Virus record (IMG/VR): IMGVR_UViG_2737471845_000021
Origin: a virus
Lineage: Duplodnaviria > Heunggongvirae > Uroviricota > Caudoviricetes
Direction: 5' to 3' (one strand)
DNA length: 13,193 nucleotides
In this document: piece after piece, positions 1,438 to 13,193 of the stretch
Numbering within the stretch: position 1 is the first letter of the stretch
Layout: every line of letters begins with the position of its first letter
Translations under genes and position numbers: made by a program
Notes under the pieces: model-generated
Database searches by the model: none
What the model saw: the letters and a program-made list of their open reading frames with translations, nothing else
What the model was told of the DNA's origin: nothing

Positions 1438-1514
1438 TGGTCCGCCACCGAGGACTCGAACCTCGCACAATCAACTTAGAAGGTTGATGCTCTATCCTGA
1501 TGAGCTAGTGGCGG
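1438..1514 (-). tRNA. tRNA-Arg (anticodon UCU)
   Basis: Minus-strand 77-nt sequence folds as a cloverleaf by hand: acceptor CCGCCAC/GTGGCGG, D-stem GCTC/GAGC, anticodon stem TCAAC/GTTGA with loop CTTCTAA (anticodon TCT), T-arm CGAGG-TTCGAGT-CCTCG, discriminator A, CCA encoded. Confidence 0.85.
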
Positions 1515-1516
1515 AA

Positions 1517-1592
1517 TGGTGGCCCTTGCTGGATTTGAACCAGCGACCTGGCGATTATGAGTCGCTCGCTCTAACCACTGAGCTAAAGGGCC
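1517..1592 (-). tRNA. tRNA-Ile2 (anticodon CAU, lysidine type; formally could be Met)
   Basis: Minus-strand 76-nt cloverleaf GGCCCTTTAGCTCAGTGGTTAGAGCGAGCGACTCATAATCGCCAGGTCGCTGGTTCAAATCCAGCAAGGGCCACCA. Anticodon loop is CTCATAA. Overall sequence is close to E. coli ileX/ileY-type tRNA rather than elongator tRNA-Met. Separated from tRNA-Arg by 2 nt. Confidence 0.8.
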
Positions 1593-1601
1593 ACATGTGA
1601 A

Positions 1602-1631
1602 ATATTAATTATTGAAAACCAGCCCCTGCAA
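1602..1631 (-). promoter_or_regulatory. Candidate sigma70 promoter for the tRNA pair
   Basis: Minus strand TTGCAG (plus 1626..1631), 18-nt spacer, TAATAT (plus 1602..1607), ending about 9 nt upstream of the tRNA-Ile 5' end. Confidence 0.35.
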
Positions 1632-2589
1632 AATTTATTCACTTATAAAAAAGGCTCAACAGTATTACCAGTGAGCCAAAGTAAAGGAATAAAACGATGA
1701 AAAGGCCAATAGACAGCATAGTAACTACACCATCAGGATAAGGCATGAATATCTGTAATTATAACATCAGCATTGCACAGAGTTTATAACTGATATCATG
1801 CCCTATCCTGATGAGGCATAAAAACACAGAAAATATCCTTTCTTATCTATATCATTCCCTACCCAGCCACTTTTTCCACAAAGAGAAACATTGAGTGTGG
1901 CACTCTGTTGTACATCATAACATTACATCCGGAAATTAACACGTCCTTCAACAGAATGCCACACTCAATATTGCCATGATATTAAGCTCCAACAAAAAAA
2001 AATAAAATGCACCGAATCCGTAACACGAAATCACAAATTGAAGAGAAACTCCCCCCCACGCAAACAAGCGCCGATGCTATACAATTTAACAGTATACAAA
2101 TCCATTAAAAGATAGAACGGGATAATGCATTGCAAGATAAAAGATGCAAAACTTTCCATTAACTCACACTACAAACACCACCGACACCCCCAACAGCGAG
2201 CTGCCTGTGGTGGAATTAAATATCACTTAAATAAGCAAGAAGCACAACCACAATCATGTAAAATTTTATTAAAAACCTTAACACAAAAAACATTTAATGA
2301 GTGGTAATGTTAGATATTTATCACTAGCTTATCAGCAATATTAGGTGAAAACACAAAAATCTTAGCTTTATGTGCACACCAACATATCAATAACTCTTGA
2401 GACTTATATGCCCAAACGGATAACAATTAACTGTATAAAAACCGCTTAAAGAATGTCTTGAAGGAATGCAGATCAATCACTCTTATCACAATACCAAAAA
2501 ATTTACGTACGTAAATCTTTCTCTATATGTTTTTTAATATATCCCGGCACTAACTCTCGGTTACTCAGAGCAAGGAAAGTTAACTAAAA

Positions 2590-8658: not shown

Positions 8659-9204
8659 TCATTTGCCCCCCCTTACCTCTGAAGGGTTCAGTGACAGATT
8701 TATGAGACTGGCCAGTACCGCCGCGTCGTTGATGCGGTCATACAGACTTATAGCCAGCGGGGATTCGGCTTTTGCCAACATGGGATAAAGCTGCTGCAGC
8801 CAGACTTTGTGGATTACCGACAAGTGGGAGTAAAGCACGCTGGCGTTATGTGCGGCATCGCTCAGCGTGGATGGCCTTGAAAGCTGCTTTTCCATCTGGT
8901 TAAAGGCATTGATGTATGCCTCTTTGAACTGGGCAGCACGTTTCCCCGTGAAACCCATAGCAAGAAACGCAAAGCCGTCGCGGGTTATTTGATAGCAAGG
9001 TAGTTTGCGGCCTGTGCAATCGGTGTAATCACTCACCGAAAAATTGCGGGCAGTGAATGATGCGGAACATTCAAGCGTGCGGATCTTTTTCAGTACATCG
9101 TCATGACGTTTGGAGAAGAAGTTGGCAACAGCTAGGGATGAAGTAACAGCCTGACCATCAACGATGGCAATTTCAGGTTGAGTGAGGGTTGGGATCGTAG
9201 CCAT
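8659..9204 (-). CDS. Rha-family phage regulatory protein
   Basis: ATG at 9204 with AGAGG upstream. MATIPTLTQPEIAIVDGQAVTSSLAVANFFSKRHDDVLKKIRTL...ITRDGFAFLAMGFTGKRAAQFKEAYINAFNQME matches the Rha N-terminal domain. The track ORF continues 133 codons upstream through the repeat module; that extension is judged non-coding. Confidence 0.7.
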   Translation of the reverse strand: MATIPTLTQPEIAIVDGQAVTSSLAVANFFSKRHDDVLKKIRTLECSASFTARNFSVSDYTDCTGRKLPCYQITRDGFAFLAMGFTGKRAAQFKEAYINAFNQMEKQLSRPSTLSDAAHNASVLYSHLSVIHKVWLQQLYPMLAKAESPLAISLYDRINDAAVLASLINLSLNPSEVRGGK

Positions 9205-9474
9205 GATGGCAGCCTCTTTGGTGATTTTTAATAACTCACCACCAAGGCTTTCCACGACCTTATTGGTGGTGAGACGTACAGGGGTGGAAATACCGGTCAC
9301 CAAAGAACCCGGCCCAACCGAAGTTGGCCCTGCACGCCCCACCATAATTTGGGCGTAATGCTGCTCATGACACAAAAAAACCGCAAGAGCGCGGTTGTGC
9401 GCTTTGGTGAATTCCGGGTTTCCACGCCCGGCACCCGCTTTATAAGGTGCCTGAACAGTGTAACCTCCCGGAAT
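9184..9474. repeat. Leader module D, copy 1 (about 290 bp), upstream of and overlapping the rha start
   Basis: Homologous to 9809..10096 with conserved blocks: cccaccataatttggg, cccgctttataaggtgcctgaacagtgtaac, gtagccatgatggcagcctc. Hairpins differ in sequence between copies but still pair. Confidence 0.75.
9374..9396 (-). terminator. Intrinsic terminator inside leader module copy 1
   Basis: Minus strand AACCGC-GCUCUU-GCGGUU followed by UUUUU. A predicted promoter lies about 75 nt upstream on the same strand (-35 TTGACC at plus 9480..9485, -10 TACACT at plus 9457..9462). Confidence 0.5.
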
Positions 9475-9534
9475 TTCACGGTCAACCAAGCTAACACGTA
9501 GAACATGCCCTGCAGGTGTGGTGTACCACTGCCC
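9475..9534. repeat. Core repeat, copy 1 (60 bp)
   Basis: Near-identical to 8546..8606. Confidence 0.8.
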
Positions 9535-9595
9535 AACTGTAGGAATTGATGTTTTTTTACGCTGAAGAAAACGGCAAATATTGAGGATCAACGGA

Positions 9596-9829
9596 TTAAG
9601 CATGACGATGCCCTCCGCTGATATTCAGGAGACGGTGAATATGAAAATTAGCCTTATCCGCCAGACGAATACGTTCAGCCTGCAAGTTAAGAAGGGTTTC
9701 TACCAGAACTTCATGCGCCTGCGGATCCGAAAGAGTTACCTTGCGCAGAGCACGTAGTGCAGTTGTTACATAACTGAGTTTATGTAAGTCTTCATCATTC
9801 AGACGAGAGAGGGCTGGGACAGTAGCCAT
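9596..9829 (-). CDS. Hypothetical 77-aa protein; first 8 codons homologous to the rha start
   Basis: ATG at 9829 in the same conserved context as the rha start (gtagccatgatggcagcctc). N-terminus MATVPAL compares with Rha MATIPTL. Function unknown. The track ORF extends 201 codons upstream through leader module copy 2. Confidence 0.4.
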   Translation of the reverse strand: MATVPALSRLNDEDLHKLSYVTTALRALRKVTLSDPQAHEVLVETLLNLQAERIRLADKANFHIHRLLNISGGHRHA

Positions 9830-10096
9830 GATGGCAGCCTCCGTATGCAATGGATAACTTCCACCACCGGAAACGCCAATTTCGCTGGTGGTGAACTGAG
9901 CAGGGTTGGCGTAACCGGCGCATACGGAAACCGGCGCACCTTTCGGTGCCCCCACCCAGCCCACCATAATTTGGGTATAGCTGAGTTGTAGCAACAAAAA
10001 AGACGCTAACGCGCCAATTGTCGCCGTATGCAATTCCAGGACGCCAATCCCGACACCCGCTTTATAAGGTGCCTGAACAGTGTAACGTCCCGGAAT
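9809..10096. repeat. Leader module D, copy 2
   Basis: See copy 1. Lacks the 60-bp core but has its own promoter-like element (-35 TTGATT at plus 10102..10107, 17-nt spacer, -10 TACACT at plus 10079..10084). Confidence 0.75.
9996..10015 (-). terminator. Intrinsic terminator inside leader module copy 2
   Basis: Minus strand GGCGC-GUUA-GCGUC followed by UUUUUU. Different stem sequence from copy 1 at the equivalent position, but still a hairpin plus U-tract. Confidence 0.45.
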
Positions 10097-10428
10097 GGCA
10101 GAATCAATGTGCTGGTGGTCCTTCACACTCAACAAAATCACGCCTGAATTTCCACAAAGGACTAAAGCACTCATGCGGGTAGTCTTTGCGAAGATAGATA
10201 ACGCGCTGTGTTTCTGGCTCCCAACGAATAACATGAACATAAAGTCCTCTTCCGTCACGAAACCAGCGGTTAAGTTCCTGCACAACTCGCCCCCCACAGT
10301 CAGGTAAAGTTCTCTGTGGTTACTTACAGCCAGGTGATTTGGTAATCTGCATTCATGCCGTAACAACAGGTGTTCAGCGACGCTGACCACCAACTGTTGC
10401 GACAAACGGTTATTTGCCGTTAAACTGT

Positions 10429-10980
10429 TCATGCGTTAGTTTCTCCACGGACACAAAACGCCACGACGCCCGGAGCTGCACACTCGCGGGCGTCACTCTT
10501 TTCTGGAGCGCAGAAAATTTTGTAGACCAGCGCCGCATGTTCCTGGAGCTTCGAAATCGACAGATACAACTCATCATTAATTGCTGTCTGTTCATGTGGC
10601 TCCACTAGCCCATCTTCGATTGCCGAACGAATCTGCTTTGAGTAACTCCCGATCTGTTCAATGACTTCCAGTAGACGTTGGTTGATATCAGCGTTCTCTA
10701 CTTCCTCAATTTCAGGAAGTGATACAAACACCCCACCAGCAGACTGTGCGACAGCATCCGCAATGTGATGAGTACTAGCCGCACGCTGTAAAACCATTGC
10801 CCATCCCAACGGAAAAAACTGATCACCATCGGCACGAAGGCGGTTGAATAAAGCGTTCTCTGTTACATCCAGCCACTCAGCAGCTTCAGCGTAACCACCT
10901 GGCAATGCCGCGATAGTTTTTCTGACAGCTTTCACATACCAGTCAGGTTGTTTTTCCACTTTCCAGTGATGCTTACCCAC
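10429..10980 (-). CDS. CII-like / YdaT-family early regulatory protein
   Basis: GTG start with AGGAGG 7 nt upstream. 183 aa. Sits immediately downstream of the Cro/YdaS-like gene, as ydaT follows ydaS in Rac-type prophages. Family call rests on position and recall, not a search. Confidence 0.55.
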   Translation of the reverse strand: MGKHHWKVEKQPDWYVKAVRKTIAALPGGYAEAAEWLDVTENALFNRLRADGDQFFPLGWAMVLQRAASTHHIADAVAQSAGGVFVSLPEIEEVENADINQRLLEVIEQIGSYSKQIRSAIEDGLVEPHEQTAINDELYLSISKLQEHAALVYKIFCAPEKSDARECAAPGVVAFCVRGETNA

Positions 10981-11224: not shown

Positions 11225-11314
11225 ACAACATGTACCTCCAGTATACATATTACATGATTGAGATGAACCTTCAAGATACTTGTACCTTATCGGTACAAAG
11301 GTTTTAATTTCGTT
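11225..11314. promoter_or_regulatory. OR-like immunity region: two 17-bp operators plus candidate PR and PRM
   Basis: Dyads TGTACCTCCAGTATACA (11231..11247) and TGTACCTTATCGGTACA (11281..11297). Minus-strand PR candidate TTGAAG, 16-nt spacer, TAATAT. Plus-strand PRM candidate TTGTAC (11280..11285), 17-nt spacer, TTTAAT (11303..11308), placing the start at the cI ATG (leaderless, as in lambda). Confidence 0.5.
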
Positions 11315-11989
11315 ATGAAAACAATCCATGACATCCGGCGGTCTAACGCCAGAAAACTGAGAGATGGTGTTGGCGGAAATTCATCCTTTGCCACCATGAT
11401 TGATCGCGAGCCTACCCAGACCAGCAGGTTTATGGGGGATGGCGCTACTAAAAATATCGGTGACAGCATGGCACGGCACATCGAAAAATGTTTCGACCTG
11501 CCTGTCGGATGGCTTGATCAAGAACACCAGACAACGAACATCACAAAAAAACCTGATGTTTCAATCACTAATAAAAAAATAACGTTAGTCCCTGTCATAT
11601 CATGGGTACAGGCCGGAGCATGGAAAGAAGTTGGCTATTCTGAGGTTGATTTGAGCACAACAGAAACGTATCCCTGCCCTGTACCCTGTGGCGAAATGAC
11701 TTATATATTGAGGGTGATTGGTGATTCAATGATTGATGAGTACCGTCCGGGAGACATGATTTTTGTCGATCCAGAAGTACCAGCCTGCCACGGCGATGAC
11801 GTTATTGCATTGATGCACGATACAGGTGAAACCACCTTCAAAAGGTTGATAGAAGACGGGACACAGCGTTATCTCAAAGCATTAAACCCCAACTGGCCTG
11901 AGCCTTACATTAAGATAAACGGTAATTGCTCTATCATTGGTACAGTTATTTTCTCAGGAAAACCAAGAAGATACAAAATTAAAGCCTGA
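11315..11989 (+). CDS. cI: CI-type prophage repressor (N-terminal HTH, C-terminal S24 LexA-like autopeptidase)
   Basis: 224 aa. C-terminal domain is closely lambda-CI-like: VIGDSM (Ser nucleophile), TFKRL (Lys), LNPNWPEPYIKINGNCSIIGTVIFS. Candidate Ala-Gly cleavage site in VQAGAW. Confidence 0.9.
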   Translation: MKTIHDIRRSNARKLRDGVGGNSSFATMIDREPTQTSRFMGDGATKNIGDSMARHIEKCFDLPVGWLDQEHQTTNITKKPDVSITNKKITLVPVISWVQAGAWKEVGYSEVDLSTTETYPCPVPCGEMTYILRVIGDSMIDEYRPGDMIFVDPEVPACHGDDVIALMHDTGETTFKRLIEDGTQRYLKALNPNWPEPYIKINGNCSIIGTVIFSGKPRRYKIKA

Positions 11990-12002
11990 TCAATGTCTAT
12001 GA

Positions 12003-12024
12003 ACCTGCTTCGGCAGGTTTTTTT
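12003..12024 (+). terminator. Rho-independent terminator after cI
   Basis: ACCTGC-TTCG-GCAGGT stem with UUCG tetraloop followed by seven T (12018..12024), 14 nt after the cI stop. Confidence 0.7.
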
Positions 12025-12028
12025 ATAC

Positions 12029-12057
12029 TTGACAATGTACCCTACAGATACATAATG
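12029..12057 (+). promoter_or_regulatory. PL/OL-like promoter with a third operator copy
   Basis: TTGACA (12029..12034), 16-nt spacer, CATAAT (12051..12056). The spacer contains TGTACCCTACAGATACA (12036..12052), matching the dyad pattern of the two OR sites. Confidence 0.45.
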
Positions 12058-12138
12058 TACCTACATAAGATATCGAACAGGCAGGACGCCCACGAAGTAG
12101 CCGTCCGGGGCATACGAAGACCGGAATGATTCGTAAAT

Positions 12139-12170
12139 AAAAAAGCGCCCAAATGGACGCTTCACTTTTG
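12139..12170 (-). terminator. Rho-independent terminator for the convergent small gene
   Basis: Minus strand AAGCGUCC-AUUU-GGGCGCUU (8-bp stem with one G-U) followed by UUUUUU. Weaker on the plus strand (C-A mismatch, short U-run). Confidence 0.55.
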
Positions 12171-12184
12171 AACTGGATTTATAA

Positions 12185-12394
12185 TCAATTATTTTCTTCA
12201 TAAATGTTTTGTAATGTTTTTATGAGATTTGGTATTTCTTTTATGGGAAAAGAATATATTGGACTTTCGATAATTTTATCAGATTCAAATGGTGGTTGTT
12301 TGCAGGACAGTTGAACTATAACTGAATTATGATCTTTAACTGGCACACAGTACCAACCACATACATCAAAAACAGGAGTATTTTGATTATCCAT
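12185..12394 (-). CDS. Hypothetical small protein (69 aa) in AT-rich context; possible cargo gene
   Basis: ATG at 12394 with GAGGA 5 nt upstream (track ORF starts at an upstream TTG). Followed by a strong terminator. Low GC content. No family recognised. Confidence 0.4.
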   Translation of the reverse strand: MDNQNTPVFDVCGWYCVPVKDHNSVIVQLSCKQPPFESDKIIESPIYSFPIKEIPNLIKTLQNIYEENN

Positions 12395-13055
12395 TATGTC
12401 CTCGACAACTAAAAACACTGCGTACAAAACTCAAAAGCAGGGAGTTATTTATAAAATTTCATAAAGAATAATTACCGATAGCGACAATTCATTGTTCTTG
12501 AATTTTGAAAAATAGCAAGATAAAACAATGTAAACTTATTTAAGAAAACTTCTTATTATGTAAATAAAACAACCAATTCGTTATATAGGAAAAACAAATA
12601 GTACGCAAGAAAATATTCAACAGGGGTATTACATTCAACCATAAGAGTAATCGTCTCTTTGGTAACTAATACCGAACATTTTATTGTAACACGGCGTATG
12701 GCACATGCGTCGTTAGCGGTCTGGGGACGTTAAAGGGGACAATCCACTCCTTGCTCGGGCAAACAAACCAGGTAGCCGGAATGTGCAAGTCAATGATGAT
12801 GCTGATAAGACGCCTAACCAGCGTGGCGATTCGGTTTGACGCCAGGGAAGAGACCAGGGTGCAACGATGAGGGCATTTATGGAACCGCGACAAAGTGTGG
12901 TGCCGTAACTGGCTAAGTGCTCTCAGCGTTGTGGTAATCCGCGAAATGGCGCGGCGGTAAGTATGGCGGGGTTACTCTTTCCCCGTTGAGGACACCGGAT
13001 TGTCAGGTTGACCATACGCCTGAGTGACAACCCCACCACAACAGCCACTGCTTTG

Positions 13056-13101
13056 GCGGTACCAGTTTGTACACTTGCTTCCGGCTGGTACCGCTCTTTT
13101 T
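13056..13101 (+). terminator. Candidate intrinsic terminator (plus strand)
   Basis: Perfect 10-bp stem GCGGTACCAG / CTGGTACCGC (13056..13065 and 13085..13094) with a 19-nt loop, followed by TCTTTTT. Confidence 0.4.
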
Positions 13102-13193
13102 ACAAAACAGAGAAGAGCATCACCGGACGACGGGCTCATAACCCAATCCATCCGGGCGGCAGTCACCGCAGGCGTTCTTCTCTGTTTTGTGGA

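What the first reader, a model, noticed from the sequence alone, without database searches (positions are those of the whole stretch)
12029..13193. PL-like promoter followed by paired hairpins and a GC-rich structured region with no N-type ORF
Downstream of cI, a near-consensus promoter with an operator copy (12029..12057) points away from cI, as lambda PL does. No plus-strand ORF of 60 aa or more follows within about 1.1 kb. Instead there are two adjacent, partly overlapping hairpins whose loops both contain ACGAAG (about 12084..12125), then a convergent small gene, then a GC-rich segment (about 12690..13100) ending in a perfect 10-bp-stem terminator, and a 15-bp inverted repeat at the window edge (13102..13116 and 13174..13188). 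This could be an RNA-based antitermination leader or an uncharacterised non-coding RNA.
Basis: inference. Interest (0 to 1): 0.5.

Follow-up and report, generated by a model that had tools for sequence, protein, structure and literature searches.

The report
Structured RNA leader after prophage PL
The 1.1 kb after the repressor gene of this E. coli prophage is a protein-free early-transcript leader built from two widespread, conserved and so far unannotated structured-RNA elements, which are the best current candidates for how N-less lambda-like phages get past their early terminators.

Summary
A repressor-controlled PL promoter (12029..12056) points away from cI. No plus-strand ORF of 60 aa or more follows before yfdP, which starts just beyond the window.

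The interval is a mosaic:
- A 64-nt 5' leader motif (12072..12135).
- An AT-rich moron with a convergent orphan ORF.
- A 181-nt conserved RNA, "module A" (12685..12865): four covarying helices and a probable pseudoknot. Two variable modules follow it.
- A strong terminator and a long covarying hairpin.

Neither the leader nor module A is in Rfam 15 or in the searched literature. Each occurs in about a quarter of complete E. coli genomes and in many enterobacterial phages.

Both usually sit at the very 5' end of repressor-controlled early transcripts. Module A replaces putL behind an HK022-type PL. It also lies next to tRNA-Arg(UCU) in Uetakeviruses and tRNA-Ile2 in P1.

Best reading, inferred and not shown: cis-acting, put-like antitermination leaders. 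The main rival is a tRNA-like cassette of stable, trans-acting RNAs.

The parts
12001..12020 (+). Intrinsic terminator of the cI (ymfK-type) repressor gene
   Evidence: 8-bp stem followed by a T-run. The same element is annotated as a terminator in phages Ayreon and SfV.
12029..12056 (+). PL-type early-left promoter, TTGACA-16-CATAAT
   Evidence: 11 of 12 matches to consensus. The equivalent site is annotated as a promoter in Ayreon and is conserved in e14, SfV and Ayreon.
12035..12073 (.). Operators OL: exact 19-mer ATGTACCCTACAGATACAT at 12035..12053 and a degenerate copy at 12055..12073
   Evidence: The same 19-mer pattern occurs at OR (11230..11248). 10 matches against 1.1 expected; 0 of 200 shuffles reach 10.
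12072..12135 (+). 5' leader RNA motif. Outer helix P0 is 12072..12077 with 12130..12135 (only 4 of 6 pairs form in this copy). An invariant 26-nt segment CAGGCAGGACGCCCACGAAGUAGCCG follows. Hairpin S1 is 12104..12108 with 12121..12125, loop GGCAUACGAAGA. An AUGA linker closes the motif.
   Evidence: Alignment A6 of 96 distinct homologues: 94.5% paired against 18-46% in slid controls; covariation score 0.665 against 0.169 in shuffles (0 of 500 as high); up to 4 pair types per position. Covariance model R2 scores the window at 90.9 bits. In 63 of 108 unique loci the motif begins 10-20 nt after a promoter -10 element.
12142..12163 (-). Terminator of the convergent moron gene. It is a weaker hairpin with an interrupted U-run on the plus strand.
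   Evidence: 9-bp stem plus TTTTTTATTT on the minus strand. The plus-strand reading comes directly from the sequence.
12185..12427 (-). Orphan small ORF (69 aa from the ATG at 12394, 80 aa from the TTG) within an AT-rich island from about 12140 to 12683. This is a moron inserted into the leader.
   Evidence: ORF list. RefSeq hypothetical protein WP_021559686.1. No Pfam or PHROG hit. GC 20-36%. The segment is absent from Ayreon-type phages.
12685..12865 (+). Module A, a conserved ~170-180-nt structured RNA. P1 is 12692..12700 with 12704..12712. P2 is a 4-bp long-range helix: CUGG in GGUCUGG just after P1, paired with CCAG immediately 5' of the invariant 19-mer. The invariant 19-mer GGUAGCCGGAAUGUGCAAG is at 12771..12789. 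P4 is 12810..12813 with 12821..12824, with a 7-nt loop. A candidate pseudoknot pairs AACC (12816..12819) with GGUU (12833..12836). P5 is 12842..12846 with 12854..12858, loop GAAGAGA.
   Evidence: Alignment A3 holds representatives of 65 clusters at 90% identity (62 aligned), drawn from 248 IMG/VR and phage loci. 97% of cells are paired against 26-60% in slid controls; 12 pairs change on both sides; covariation score 0.220 against 0.104 (0 of 500). Covariance model R1 scores the window at 131 bits. Many G-U pairs make the structure specific to the plus strand.
12866..12928 (+). Module B, a variable domain closed by GAGGGCA (12869..12875) with UGCUCUC (12918..12924). It is followed by the junction motif AGCGUUGUGG.
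   Evidence: Shared with phiV10 and SPN1S-type phages, where the interior differs but the closing stem is kept (GAGAGCA/UGCUCUC). mEp390 has the analogous stem AAAGCGCA/UGCGCUUU. Fold z = -2.05.
12928..13047 (+). Module C1, a cloverleaf-like four-way junction closed by GUUGUGGU (12928..12935) with ACCACAAC (13035..13042), followed by AGCCA. It occupies the slot that holds tRNA-Arg(UCU) in Uetakeviruses.
   Evidence: Predicted fold (z = -0.1, so not significant on its own). Alternative cargos C2 (140 nt) and C3 share the same closing stem and AGCCA tail. In phiV10 the slot holds GUGGCAU..tRNA-Arg..AUGCCAC-GCCA. ARAGORN does not call C1 a tRNA.
13055..13101 (+). Strong intrinsic terminator (first half of module D)
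   Evidence: 10 Watson-Crick pairs plus one G-U and a CUUUUU tail; z = -4.1. Equivalent terminators with different stem sequences but the same CCUUUUUAC tail occur in ST64B, Kp4866-6 and phiV10.
13102..13190 (+). Long hairpin (second half of module D), about 50 nt upstream of the yfdP start codon, which lies beyond the window. It is a candidate RNase III or processing site.
   Evidence: z = -6.6. 93.8% paired against 41-65% in slid controls, with 3 compensatory pairs in 7 sequences. Also present in e14, SfV, ST64B and a Klebsiella phage. yfdP starts at about window position 13239, from L001 7250.

Best explanation
SHOWN
- The interval is the untranslated 5' leader of the early-left (PL) operon of an e14/SfV/CPS-53-type lambdoid prophage in which no N-type gene was found.
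- The leader is a recombinational mosaic of conserved structured-RNA modules, in this order:
  1. PL and its operators.
  2. A 64-nt leader motif at the transcript 5' end.
  3. A moron with a convergent gene.
  4. Module A (181 nt), then modules B and C1.
  5. A strong intrinsic terminator.
  6. A long hairpin.
  7. yfdP-yfdQ-yfdR and the rest of the operon, ending with int.

INFERRED
- The leader motif and module A are alternative promoter-proximal, cis-acting RNA elements.
- Once transcribed, they are proposed to make the RNA polymerase that made them resistant to the terminators that follow. These are the weak plus-strand face of 12142..12163 and the strong terminator at 13055..13101. Early-left genes would then be expressed without an N protein.
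- This would work like HK022 put RNA, but with unrelated sequence and fold.
- The long hairpin then probably serves as a processing or translation-control site for the yfdP mRNA.
For: Structure
- Both elements are real, conserved, strand-specific RNA structures.

Position
- In 63 of 108 unique loci the leader motif starts about 10-20 nt after a promoter -10 element.
- In representatives of at least 22 of the 65 module A clusters, module A lies 90-135 nt after the stop codon of a cI-type repressor gene on the same strand. Its start is typically 29-54 nt after a -10 element that carries operator palindromes.
- The other two contexts of module A are also repressor-controlled early transcripts. 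One is the P1 ban operon, controlled by the C1 operator Oban. The other is the Uetakevirus cassette, next to an annotated repressor site.

Replacement of put
- Behind an HK022-type OL/PL with near-identical operators, module A occupies the place that putL occupies in HK022.

Alternative use
- The leader and module A are largely alternative. 194 of 201 module A loci have no leader upstream. 90 of 95 leader loci have no module A downstream. When both occur, the order is always leader then A.

Terminators
- Representatives of 38 of the 65 clusters have a hairpin-plus-U-run site 160-800 nt after the invariant motif. Most of these are strong (-17 kcal/mol or lower), and often there are two about 100 nt apart.
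- The module D terminator is conserved in structure across phages whose stem sequences differ.

No N gene
- No N-type ORF was found in the window or in relatives.
- Phage specialists already speculate that N-less lambdoid phages use a put-like RNA (PMC12315714).
Against: - No experiment or transcript data was available. Antitermination is inferred from position alone.
- There is no sequence or covariance-model similarity to HK022 putL.
- Each locus examined carries one copy. No PR-side copy analogous to putR was found.
- In P1, module A sits 2.3 kb from Pban and directly before ban, with no terminator in between.
- 13 of 94 unique module-D loci have neither the leader nor module A upstream. 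In 10 of these, PL is followed directly by module C2 and then the same terminator. Read-through of that terminator therefore cannot depend strictly on either element.
- Module A's tight linkage to tRNA genes, and the fact that module C and a tRNA occupy the same slot, fit a stable-RNA cassette at least as well.
Confidence: 0.38

Rival explanations
1. Stable-RNA gene cassette. Module A (with B) and the slot module C1 are matured out of the PL transcript in the way tRNAs are: RNase P or RNase E cuts at the tRNA-like closing stem with its AGCCA tail, ending at the terminator. They then act in trans on a host target immediately after induction, for example as a decoy, sponge, or tRNA- or RNA-polymerase-directed RNA. 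Under this reading the terminator is simply the end of the RNA gene and leaks enough to express yfdP.
For: - Module A lies about 8 nt after tRNA-Ile2(CAU) in 26 of 248 loci (P1 type). It lies upstream of tRNA-Arg(UCU) in 45 of 248 loci (Uetakevirus type), always on the same strand.
- The slot closed by GUUGUGG/CCACAAC followed by (A)GCCA holds either a genuine tRNA-Arg or one of three unrelated structured cargos, C1, C2 or C3.
- Some module B versions contain T-arm-like hairpins such as GGUUCAAUUCC.
- The unit often ends in tandem terminators, as stable-RNA genes do.
- No protein gene co-occurs with it consistently. The downstream genes fall into 25 unrelated clusters, which suggests a host partner.
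- The 19-nt invariant block suggests a conserved host ligand.
- Phage-borne, tRNA-adjacent large RNAs have precedents in ROOL and GOLLD (PMC12286853, listed; the comparison itself is from general knowledge).
Against: - ARAGORN and the Rfam tRNA model do not recognise C1.
- The fold of C1 is no better than shuffled sequence (z = -0.1), and there is too little variation to test covariation.
- This reading does not explain the 64-nt leader motif, which has no link to tRNAs.
- In lysogens PL is repressed, so the RNA would be made only on induction or infection.
- No processed species has been observed.
Confidence: 0.3
2. Passive or host-factor-assisted insulating leader. The terminator and the long hairpin attenuate and time early-left expression (xis, int and toxic early genes). 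The structured modules mainly protect a very long untranslated RNA from Rho and RNases. This protection may work through rrn-type boxA/Nus-factor antitermination at the junction motif, rather than through a put-like RNA.
For: - Leaders reach about 0.5-1 kb with no ORF, as in mEp390 and L309. Untranslated RNA of that length needs protection from Rho (established knowledge; boxA upstream of rrn operons and CRISPR arrays, PMC7665894, listed).
- The recurring junction motif RGUGCKCUYYCAGNUGUGG resembles boxA UGCUCUUUAACA followed by boxC-like GUGUGG. It occurs at the 5' side of module A in Uetakeviruses and between modules elsewhere.
- The mEp phages that carry these elements come from a collection described as Nus-dependent (PMC11893012 abstract).
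- Module D is conserved even where neither the leader nor module A is present.
Against: - The boxA-like half of the motif is also the 3' strand of a covarying closing stem, so it may not be single-stranded.
- It matches the boxA core only partly.
- A passive role does not explain 19-26-nt invariant blocks or junction nucleotides conserved across very different phages.
Confidence: 0.15
3. Sensor RNA. Module A together with the terminator acts as a riboswitch-like or T-box-like attenuator. It would read a cellular signal, for example the state of the rare tRNA-Arg(UCU) or tRNA-Ile2, and decide whether early-left transcription continues.
For: - The architecture is riboswitch-like: conserved junctions, variable peripheral hairpins and a pseudoknot with one compensatory change (CACC:GGUG to AACC:GGUU).
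- The P5 loop GAAGAGA contains AGA. Variant loops CGAUA and GAAUAGA contain AUA. These are the codons of the two tRNAs linked to the element.
- An invariant UGGC could pair with a GCCA 3' end.
- A terminator lies downstream in many loci.
Against: - The codon-like loop does not track the neighbouring tRNA: the P1 type sits beside tRNA-Ile2 but has the AGA loop.
- UGGC does not vary.
- The terminator lies 190-600 nt away, with interchangeable modules in between, and no alternative antiterminator pairing was found.
- The P1 copy has no terminator at all.
Confidence: 0.07
4. No RNA function. The GC-rich segment would be decayed coding sequence, recombination scars between phage modules, or a DNA-level site.
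For: - Module boundaries coincide with mosaic recombination junctions.
- Some phage records annotate short hypothetical proteins over the region.
Against: - There are compensatory base-pair changes in at least nine helices, with frequent G-U pairs that would be C-A mismatches on the other strand.
- Orientation is constant relative to promoters and tRNAs in three unrelated phage groups.
- Stop codons occur in all frames.
- Blocks of 19-26 nt are invariant across 65 divergent clusters.
Confidence: 0.03

Closest known systems
HK022 put RNAs (putL and putR), cis-acting processive antiterminator RNAs
   Same: - An RNA of about 65-70 nt (leader motif) or a larger one (module A) at or near the 5' end of the PL transcript of a lambdoid phage with no N gene found, followed by terminators.
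- Module A sits exactly where putL sits behind a near-identical HK022-type OL/PL.
- The description of putL as '~70 nt, two stem-loops, just downstream of PL' comes from PMC9378689.
   Different: - No sequence or covariance-model similarity.
- The helix layout differs: an outer closing helix plus an inner hairpin for the leader, and four helices plus a pseudoknot for module A.
- One copy per locus examined instead of a PL plus PR pair.
- Module A also occurs in non-lambdoid phages next to tRNAs.
- Activity is untested.
Lambda nutL/N antitermination with the RNase III-sensitive N leader
   Same: - Same place in the genome map: cI, then PL with operators, then a leader, then early-left genes.
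- A long hairpin just upstream of the first gene is reminiscent of the RNase III site in the lambda N leader (established knowledge).
   Different: - No N-type ORF in the window or in relatives.
- No boxB-type 5-nt-loop hairpin paired with a consensus boxA.
- The first gene is yfdP, of unknown function.
ROOL and GOLLD large ornate RNAs of phages
   Same: Phage-borne, protein-free, highly structured RNAs of hundreds of nucleotides, frequently adjacent to or interleaved with tRNA genes. Their function is unknown (general knowledge; PMC12286853, listed).
   Different: - No Rfam match to either family.
- Much smaller conserved core (about 170 nt).
- Enterobacterial hosts.
- A defined position at the start of repressor-controlled early operons.
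rrn-type boxA (NusB/NusE) antitermination leaders, including those upstream of CRISPR arrays
   Same: They protect long untranslated structured transcripts. The junction motif partly resembles boxA plus boxC.
   Different: The match to boxA is only partial. The motif is predicted to be base-paired. The strongly conserved parts of the leader and of module A are unrelated to boxA.

Membership tests
HK022 put RNA | Located just downstream of an early promoter of a lambdoid phage that lacks N | tested here: met
   - The leader motif begins at about +9 of the predicted PL transcript.
- Module A lies 29-54 nt after PL -10 elements in relatives and replaces putL behind an HK022-type PL.
- No N-type ORF was found.
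HK022 put RNA | Sequence and structure related to putL/putR (two stem-loops of about 70 nt with a shared sequence) | tested here: not met
   - Alignment with HK022 putL shows only short chance-level matches.
- Covariance models R1 and R2 give no hit in the HK022 region fetched here (cI to gene O, including PL-putL).
HK022 put RNA | Two copies per phage, one in the PL operon and one in the PR operon | tested here: not met
   Only one R1 and one R2 hit in the 13-kb window and in every locus searched. The window covers the PR side up to late-region tRNAs, but complete genomes were not scanned.
HK022 put RNA | Terminator read-through in cis that depends on the RNA polymerase beta-prime zinc-binding domain | not testable with these tools
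   Requires reporter or in vitro transcription assays.
Lambda N/nut system | An N-type arginine-rich antiterminator gene as the first PL gene, with boxA and boxB nut sites | tested here: not met
   - No plus-strand ORF of 60 aa or more before yfdP.
- First genes in relatives (YmfJ, SfV orf33, the mEp390 119-aa protein, YfdP) match only PHROGs of unknown function.
- No boxB-like pentaloop hairpin with an adjacent consensus boxA was seen in the sequence.
Any Rfam 15 family | Covariance-model match at or near the gathering score | tested here: not met
   - No hit in 11950..13193 at gathering score; only chance-level hits at E <= 10.
- Homologous loci give only tRNA and an unrelated int-alpA hit.
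Intrinsic (Rho-independent) terminator | GC-rich stem followed directly by a U-run, more stable than shuffled sequence | tested here: met
   13055..13101: 10 Watson-Crick pairs plus one G-U, a CUUUUU tail, z = -4.1. Structurally equivalent terminators with different stems occur in relatives. It was missed by the consensus scan because its loop has 19 nt.
tRNA or tRNA-like element (module C1) | Cloverleaf with a 7-bp acceptor stem, a T-arm stacked on it, and a 3' NCCA | tested here: inconclusive
   - It has a 7-8-bp closing stem followed by AGCCA, and it occupies the slot that holds tRNA-Arg in phiV10.
- ARAGORN and the Rfam tRNA model do not call it.
- Four nucleotides separate the last hairpin from the closing stem, and the fold has z = -0.1.
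T-box leader | Specifier codon loop, a UGGN T-box bulge that covaries with the tRNA discriminator base, and competing terminator and antiterminator structures | tested here: inconclusive
   - AGA- or AUA-containing P5 loops and an invariant UGGC exist.
- They do not covary with the adjacent tRNA.
- No antiterminator alternative was found.
AgvB/AsxR prophage anti-sRNAs | A 51-60-nt sRNA at the PR' moron site with a conserved 3' 42 nt (RF02702, RF02703) | tested here: not met
   The CACAACA motif at 13036..13042 prompted this test. There is no Rfam hit, and AgvB maps downstream of PR', not PL (PMC4104026).

The most novel reading that the evidence does not exclude
Module A, with its tRNA-slot partners B and C, is the enterobacterial representative of a new class of phage-borne, tRNA-linked structured RNAs. 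These would be released from the first early transcript and act on a host machine, such as the tRNA pool or a tRNA-targeting defence, RNase P or RNA polymerase. Alternatively they could sense the rare tRNA-Arg(UCU) or tRNA-Ile2. On this reading module A is not merely a put-like leader. It would be a functional counterpart of ROOL and GOLLD in the best-studied host, carried by P1, epsilon15-like and lambdoid phages and present in about a quarter of E. coli genomes.
Probability: 0.25. Interest if true: 0.85.

Novelty: new variant of a known kind. Interest (0 to 1): 0.7.

Why it matters
How lambdoid phages without an N gene get past their early terminators has been answered only for HK022, through put RNA. 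For the many e14-, SfV-, ST64B- and Stx2c-type phages it is still a matter of speculation (PMC12315714).

This work delimits two concrete RNA elements that can be mutated and tested:
- Each has a covariation-supported secondary structure.
- Each is present in about 1,300-1,400 of 5,426 complete E. coli genomes.
- Both occur in Shigella, Salmonella, Klebsiella, Citrobacter, Yersinia and Pantoea phages.
- Carriers include Stx2-converting and serotype-converting phages.
- Both sit at the 5' end of the early-left transcript.

If they are antiterminators, they are new RNA folds that reprogram E. coli RNA polymerase. They would also be a new handle on prophage induction.

If instead module A is a trans-acting, tRNA-linked RNA, it is an unnoticed RNA gene in phage P1 and in a quarter of E. 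coli genomes.

Either way the elements are currently unannotated. In several phage records they are mis-annotated as hypothetical proteins.

Tried and rejected
1. **Rfam.** No family matches at gathering score or at E <= 10.
2. **AgvB-like GcvB sponge.** This was suggested by CACAACA next to the terminator. It was rejected: AgvB is in Rfam, does not hit, and maps to the PR' moron site.
3. **Homology to HK022 putL.** The shared ACGGCG...CAUGCGUCG is a short coincidence, and the models do not hit HK022.
4. **Resemblance of module A to the 3' part of RNase P RNA.** I recalled this from memory (CCGGGUAG..CACGACAG..GUUUCACC). cmscan does not support it and I dropped it.
Both were replaced by P0 plus S1.
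6. **RNAalifold's long-range pairing GCACAU:AUGUGC in module A.** All columns are invariant, so it is uninformative. The local P1 hairpin has 18 compensatory G-C to A-U cells.
7. **Genome-contig scan with a gapped pattern.** Of the 74 hits, the only enterobacterial one was an Escherichia sp. contig; nearly all the others were in unrelated, mostly GC-rich taxa and look like chance matches. The scan was wasted.
8. **Second copies near PR or elsewhere.** None were found in the window, P1 (45-94.8 kb) or 30 other loci.
9. **N-like function for the first downstream genes.** Only PHROGs of unknown function match.
10. **Literature search.** Searches by sequence string and by topic found no description. 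The supplements of the EHEC Hfq-CRAC paper do not contain the sequence.
11. **'Module D is always preceded by the leader or module A.'** This is true for about 86% of unique loci but not all: 13 of 94 have neither. The locus set is also biased by how it was collected.
Full report
**Setting**

The window is part of an e14/CPS-53/SfV-type lambdoid prophage of E. coli.
- It matches strain 377323_2f at 98.9% identity over the queried 11990..13193.
- RefSeq annotation of that strain reads, in order: ymfL, ymfT (cro), ymfK (cI), a small hypothetical gene, yfdP, yfdQ, yfdR, and eventually an integrase.
- cI (11315..11989) is an S24-peptidase repressor.

**Check of the observation**

- The promoter at 12029..12056 matches consensus at 11 of 12 positions.
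- A 19-bp operator (ATGTACC-N7-TACAT) lies exactly in its spacer and again at OR. There are 10 matches in the window against 1.1 expected.
- No plus-strand ORF of 60 aa or more follows. The first plus-strand gene, yfdP, starts about 46 nt beyond the window end.
- The GC profile shows a 20-36% GC island at 12150..12650 and 52-58% GC at 12700..13100.
- The terminator has 10 perfect pairs (z = -4.1). The terminal inverted repeat forms a hairpin stem of about 17-20 bp (z = -6.6).

**The interval is a mosaic**

Comparison with relatives shows several independent modules.
- Phage Ayreon has the same cI terminator, PL and operators. From about 12085 it continues directly into the GC-rich region, without 12085..12683.
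- K-12 e14 shares PL and the hairpin segment at 87% identity, followed by ymfJ. It shares the terminator and long hairpin elsewhere, upstream of xisE and under the doubtful ORF ymfH.
- Different stretches of the GC-rich region match different phage groups.

The window therefore carries two separate conserved elements, with a moron between them. The moron is the orphan ORF 12185..12427 on the minus strand, with its own strong terminator and no family match.

**Element 1: the 5' leader motif (12072..12135)**

The segment ACAGGCAGGACGCCCACGAAGUAGCC... recurs right after PL in e14, SfV and ST64B, although ST64B has different operators. With the loci already held, this gave 129 loci and 96 distinct aligned sequences.

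Covariation defines the structure:
- An outer helix, 12072..12077 with 12130..12135. Variants include AGCGAA/UUCGCU, ACCACC/GGUGG and GUCAUC/GAUGAC.
- An inner hairpin, 12104..12108 with 12121..12125. Variants include CCUGG/CCAGG, CCGAC/GUCGG, CCACC/GGUGG and CCCCA/UGGGG.
- 94.5% of cells are paired, against 18-46% in slid controls.
- 10 of 11 pairs change on both sides.
- The covariation score is 0.665 against 0.169 in shuffles (0 of 500 as high).

Position: in 63 of 108 unique loci a promoter-like site ends 15-25 nt before the motif. The motif therefore begins at roughly +3 to +12 of the transcript, and at about +9 in the window.

Distribution: about 1,329 of 5,426 complete E. coli genomes carry it. 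So do phages of Salmonella, Shigella, Klebsiella, Citrobacter, Yersinia, Pantoea and Pectobacterium, always without annotation.

**Element 2: module A (12685..12865)**

Three-way comparison with P7 and phiV10 first showed compensatory hairpins. Together they gave 248 loci, 186 distinct cores and 65 clusters at 90% identity.

On 62 representatives, four helices and a loop-to-linker pseudoknot are supported:
- 97% of cells are paired, against 26-60% in slid controls.
- 12 pairs change on both sides.
- The covariation score is 0.220 against 0.104 (0 of 500).
- One P1 pair is A-U in 44 sequences and G-C in 18, with no breaks.
- The pseudoknot CACC:GGUG becomes AACC:GGUU in the window's lineage. 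That is one evolutionary event, so it is only suggestive.

Frequent G-U pairs and a constant orientation make this an RNA of the plus strand. The 19-mer GGUAGCCGGAAUGUGCAAG is invariant in all 62.

Rfam 15 has no match. Neither the very detailed P1 reference annotation nor PGAP annotates it. No paper containing the sequence or describing it was found.

It is present in 1,375 of 5,426 complete E. coli genomes, with 256 places on plasmids.

**Contexts of module A**

There are three contexts, and all are early transcripts under repressor control.
1. *Lambdoid phages, right after cI and PL.* A cI-type gene ends 90-135 nt upstream on the same strand in representatives of at least 22 of the 65 clusters. 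Promoters with operator palindromes lie 10-54 nt upstream.
2. *Uetakeviruses (phiV10, SPN1S, Tyrion, epsilon15).* Module A lies in a cassette on the opposite strand between terminase and portal. It is followed by module B, tRNA-Arg(UCU) and one or two terminators. The epsilon15 record annotates a repressor site just upstream.
3. *P1 and P7.* Module A lies in the C1-controlled ban operon, about 8 nt after tRNA-Ile2(CAU) and directly before ban.

In three loci with near-identical HK022-type operators, module A begins where putL begins in HK022.

**The rest of the GC-rich region**

- *Module B* is a variable domain held by a covarying closing stem.
- *Module C1* is a cloverleaf-like junction closed by GUUGUGGU/ACCACAAC and followed by AGCCA. 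Two other cargos (C2 and C3) and, in Uetakeviruses, a genuine tRNA-Arg occupy the same slot. C1 itself cannot be validated: z = -0.1 and there is almost no variation.
- *Module D* (terminator plus long hairpin, then a small hairpin and the yfdP Shine-Dalgarno sequence) is conserved in architecture, with different stem sequences and some compensatory changes, in SfV, ST64B, a Klebsiella phage and phiV10.

In mEp390-type phages the untranslated leader reaches 0.6-0.9 kb.

**How the parts relate**

- The leader and module A are mostly alternatives. 194 of 201 module A loci lack the leader. 90 of 95 leader loci lack module A. The window belongs to the rare class with both, always in the order leader then A.
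- Of 94 unique module-D loci, 61 have module A, 22 have the leader (2 of these have both) and 13 have neither. Ten of the 13 are one type in which PL runs straight into module C2 and then D. This census is biased by how the loci were collected.

**Interpretation**

*What is shown.* This is a protein-free, repressor-controlled early leader made of conserved structured RNAs, ending in a strong terminator ahead of the early-left genes. No N-type gene was found.

*What is inferred.* I favour a put-like, cis-acting antitermination role for the leader motif and for module A, at confidence 0.38. The reasons are:
- their promoter-proximal position;
- the terminators that follow them;
- their mutual exclusivity;
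- the replacement of putL by module A.

Specialists already suspect put-like RNAs in N-less lambdoid phages.

*Against it.*
- There is no homology to put.
- There is a single copy per locus examined.
- The P1 context lacks a terminator.
- Some loci have module D with neither element upstream.

*Rivals.*
- The main rival (0.30) is that module A, B and C form a tRNA-like cassette of stable trans-acting RNAs. This explains the tRNA linkage and the shared slot, but not the leader motif.
- A passive or boxA/Nus-assisted anti-Rho leader: 0.15.
- A tRNA- or ligand-sensing attenuator: 0.07.
- No RNA function: 0.03.

**Verdict**

It leads to two widespread, well-supported and apparently undescribed RNA motifs. 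It also makes the question of N-independent early antitermination directly testable. Function remains unproven.

Noticed in passing
window 9262..9450 and 9884..10072, minus strand: There are two tandem copies of a P1-immI-like unit. C4 antisense RNA (RF01695, 83.6 and 80.7 bits) is each followed by isrK (RF01394). Both copies lie inside the long ORFs 8659..9603 and 9596..10432, whose N-terminal parts are therefore probably RNA genes and not coding sequence.
   Followed up: no
window 1438..1592, minus strand: tRNA-Arg(tct) and tRNA-Met/Ile2(cat) lie side by side in the late region. These are the same two rare-codon tRNA types that flank module A in Uetakeviruses and in P1.
   Followed up: partly
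window 12915..12934; L204 1866..1890 and 2030..2056; upstream of module A in L218, L203 and L232: A recurring junction motif RGUGCKCUYYCAGNUGUGG marks module boundaries. It resembles rrn boxA plus boxC. Its first half is also the 3' strand of the module-B closing stem.
   Followed up: partly
window 12847..12853 (P5 loop) and the homologous loops in L206, L219 and L281: The P5 loop is GAAGAGA, which contains AGA, in most family members. A replaced hairpin has the loop CGAUA, and two members have GAAUAGA, both containing AUA. These are the codons read by the two tRNAs linked to the element. The loop type does not track the adjacent tRNA.
   Followed up: partly
L325 26017..26204 (P1 NC_005856, about 71017..71204): The trnI-ban spacer of phage P1 contains a full-length module A (129 bits). 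It has no feature in the otherwise exhaustively annotated reference record.
   Followed up: yes
L202 about 1600..1725 (SPN1S) and L092: Some module-B versions contain two T-arm-like hairpins (CUGGUUCAAUUCCAG and GGUCAGUUCGAUUCGGAC) just upstream of tRNA-Arg. This suggests decayed or tRNA-like domains inside the leader.
   Followed up: no
L200 5070..5381 (E. coli K-12 e14, ymfH): The annotated ORF ymfH overlaps the conserved terminator and long hairpin (module D) upstream of xisE. It may not be a real gene.
   Followed up: no
L449 and nine near-identical IMG/VR loci: In this lambdoid type, PL is followed within about 15 nt by module C2 alone (140 nt, closed by GUUGUGGUG/CACCACAAC) and then the module D terminator. 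Module C can therefore itself be the promoter-proximal RNA.
   Followed up: partly
L447 1282..1509 (epsilon15 NC_004775): The epsilon15 record annotates a repressor-binding site, an IHF site and an 'RNaseIII' processing site immediately upstream of, and overlapping, its truncated module A (47 bits). A terminator is annotated about 55 nt downstream of it.
   Followed up: no
L203 2598..2662 (Enterobacter phage Tyrion): An int-alpA RNA (RF02996, 44 bits) lies about 1 kb downstream of module A in the same cassette.
   Followed up: no
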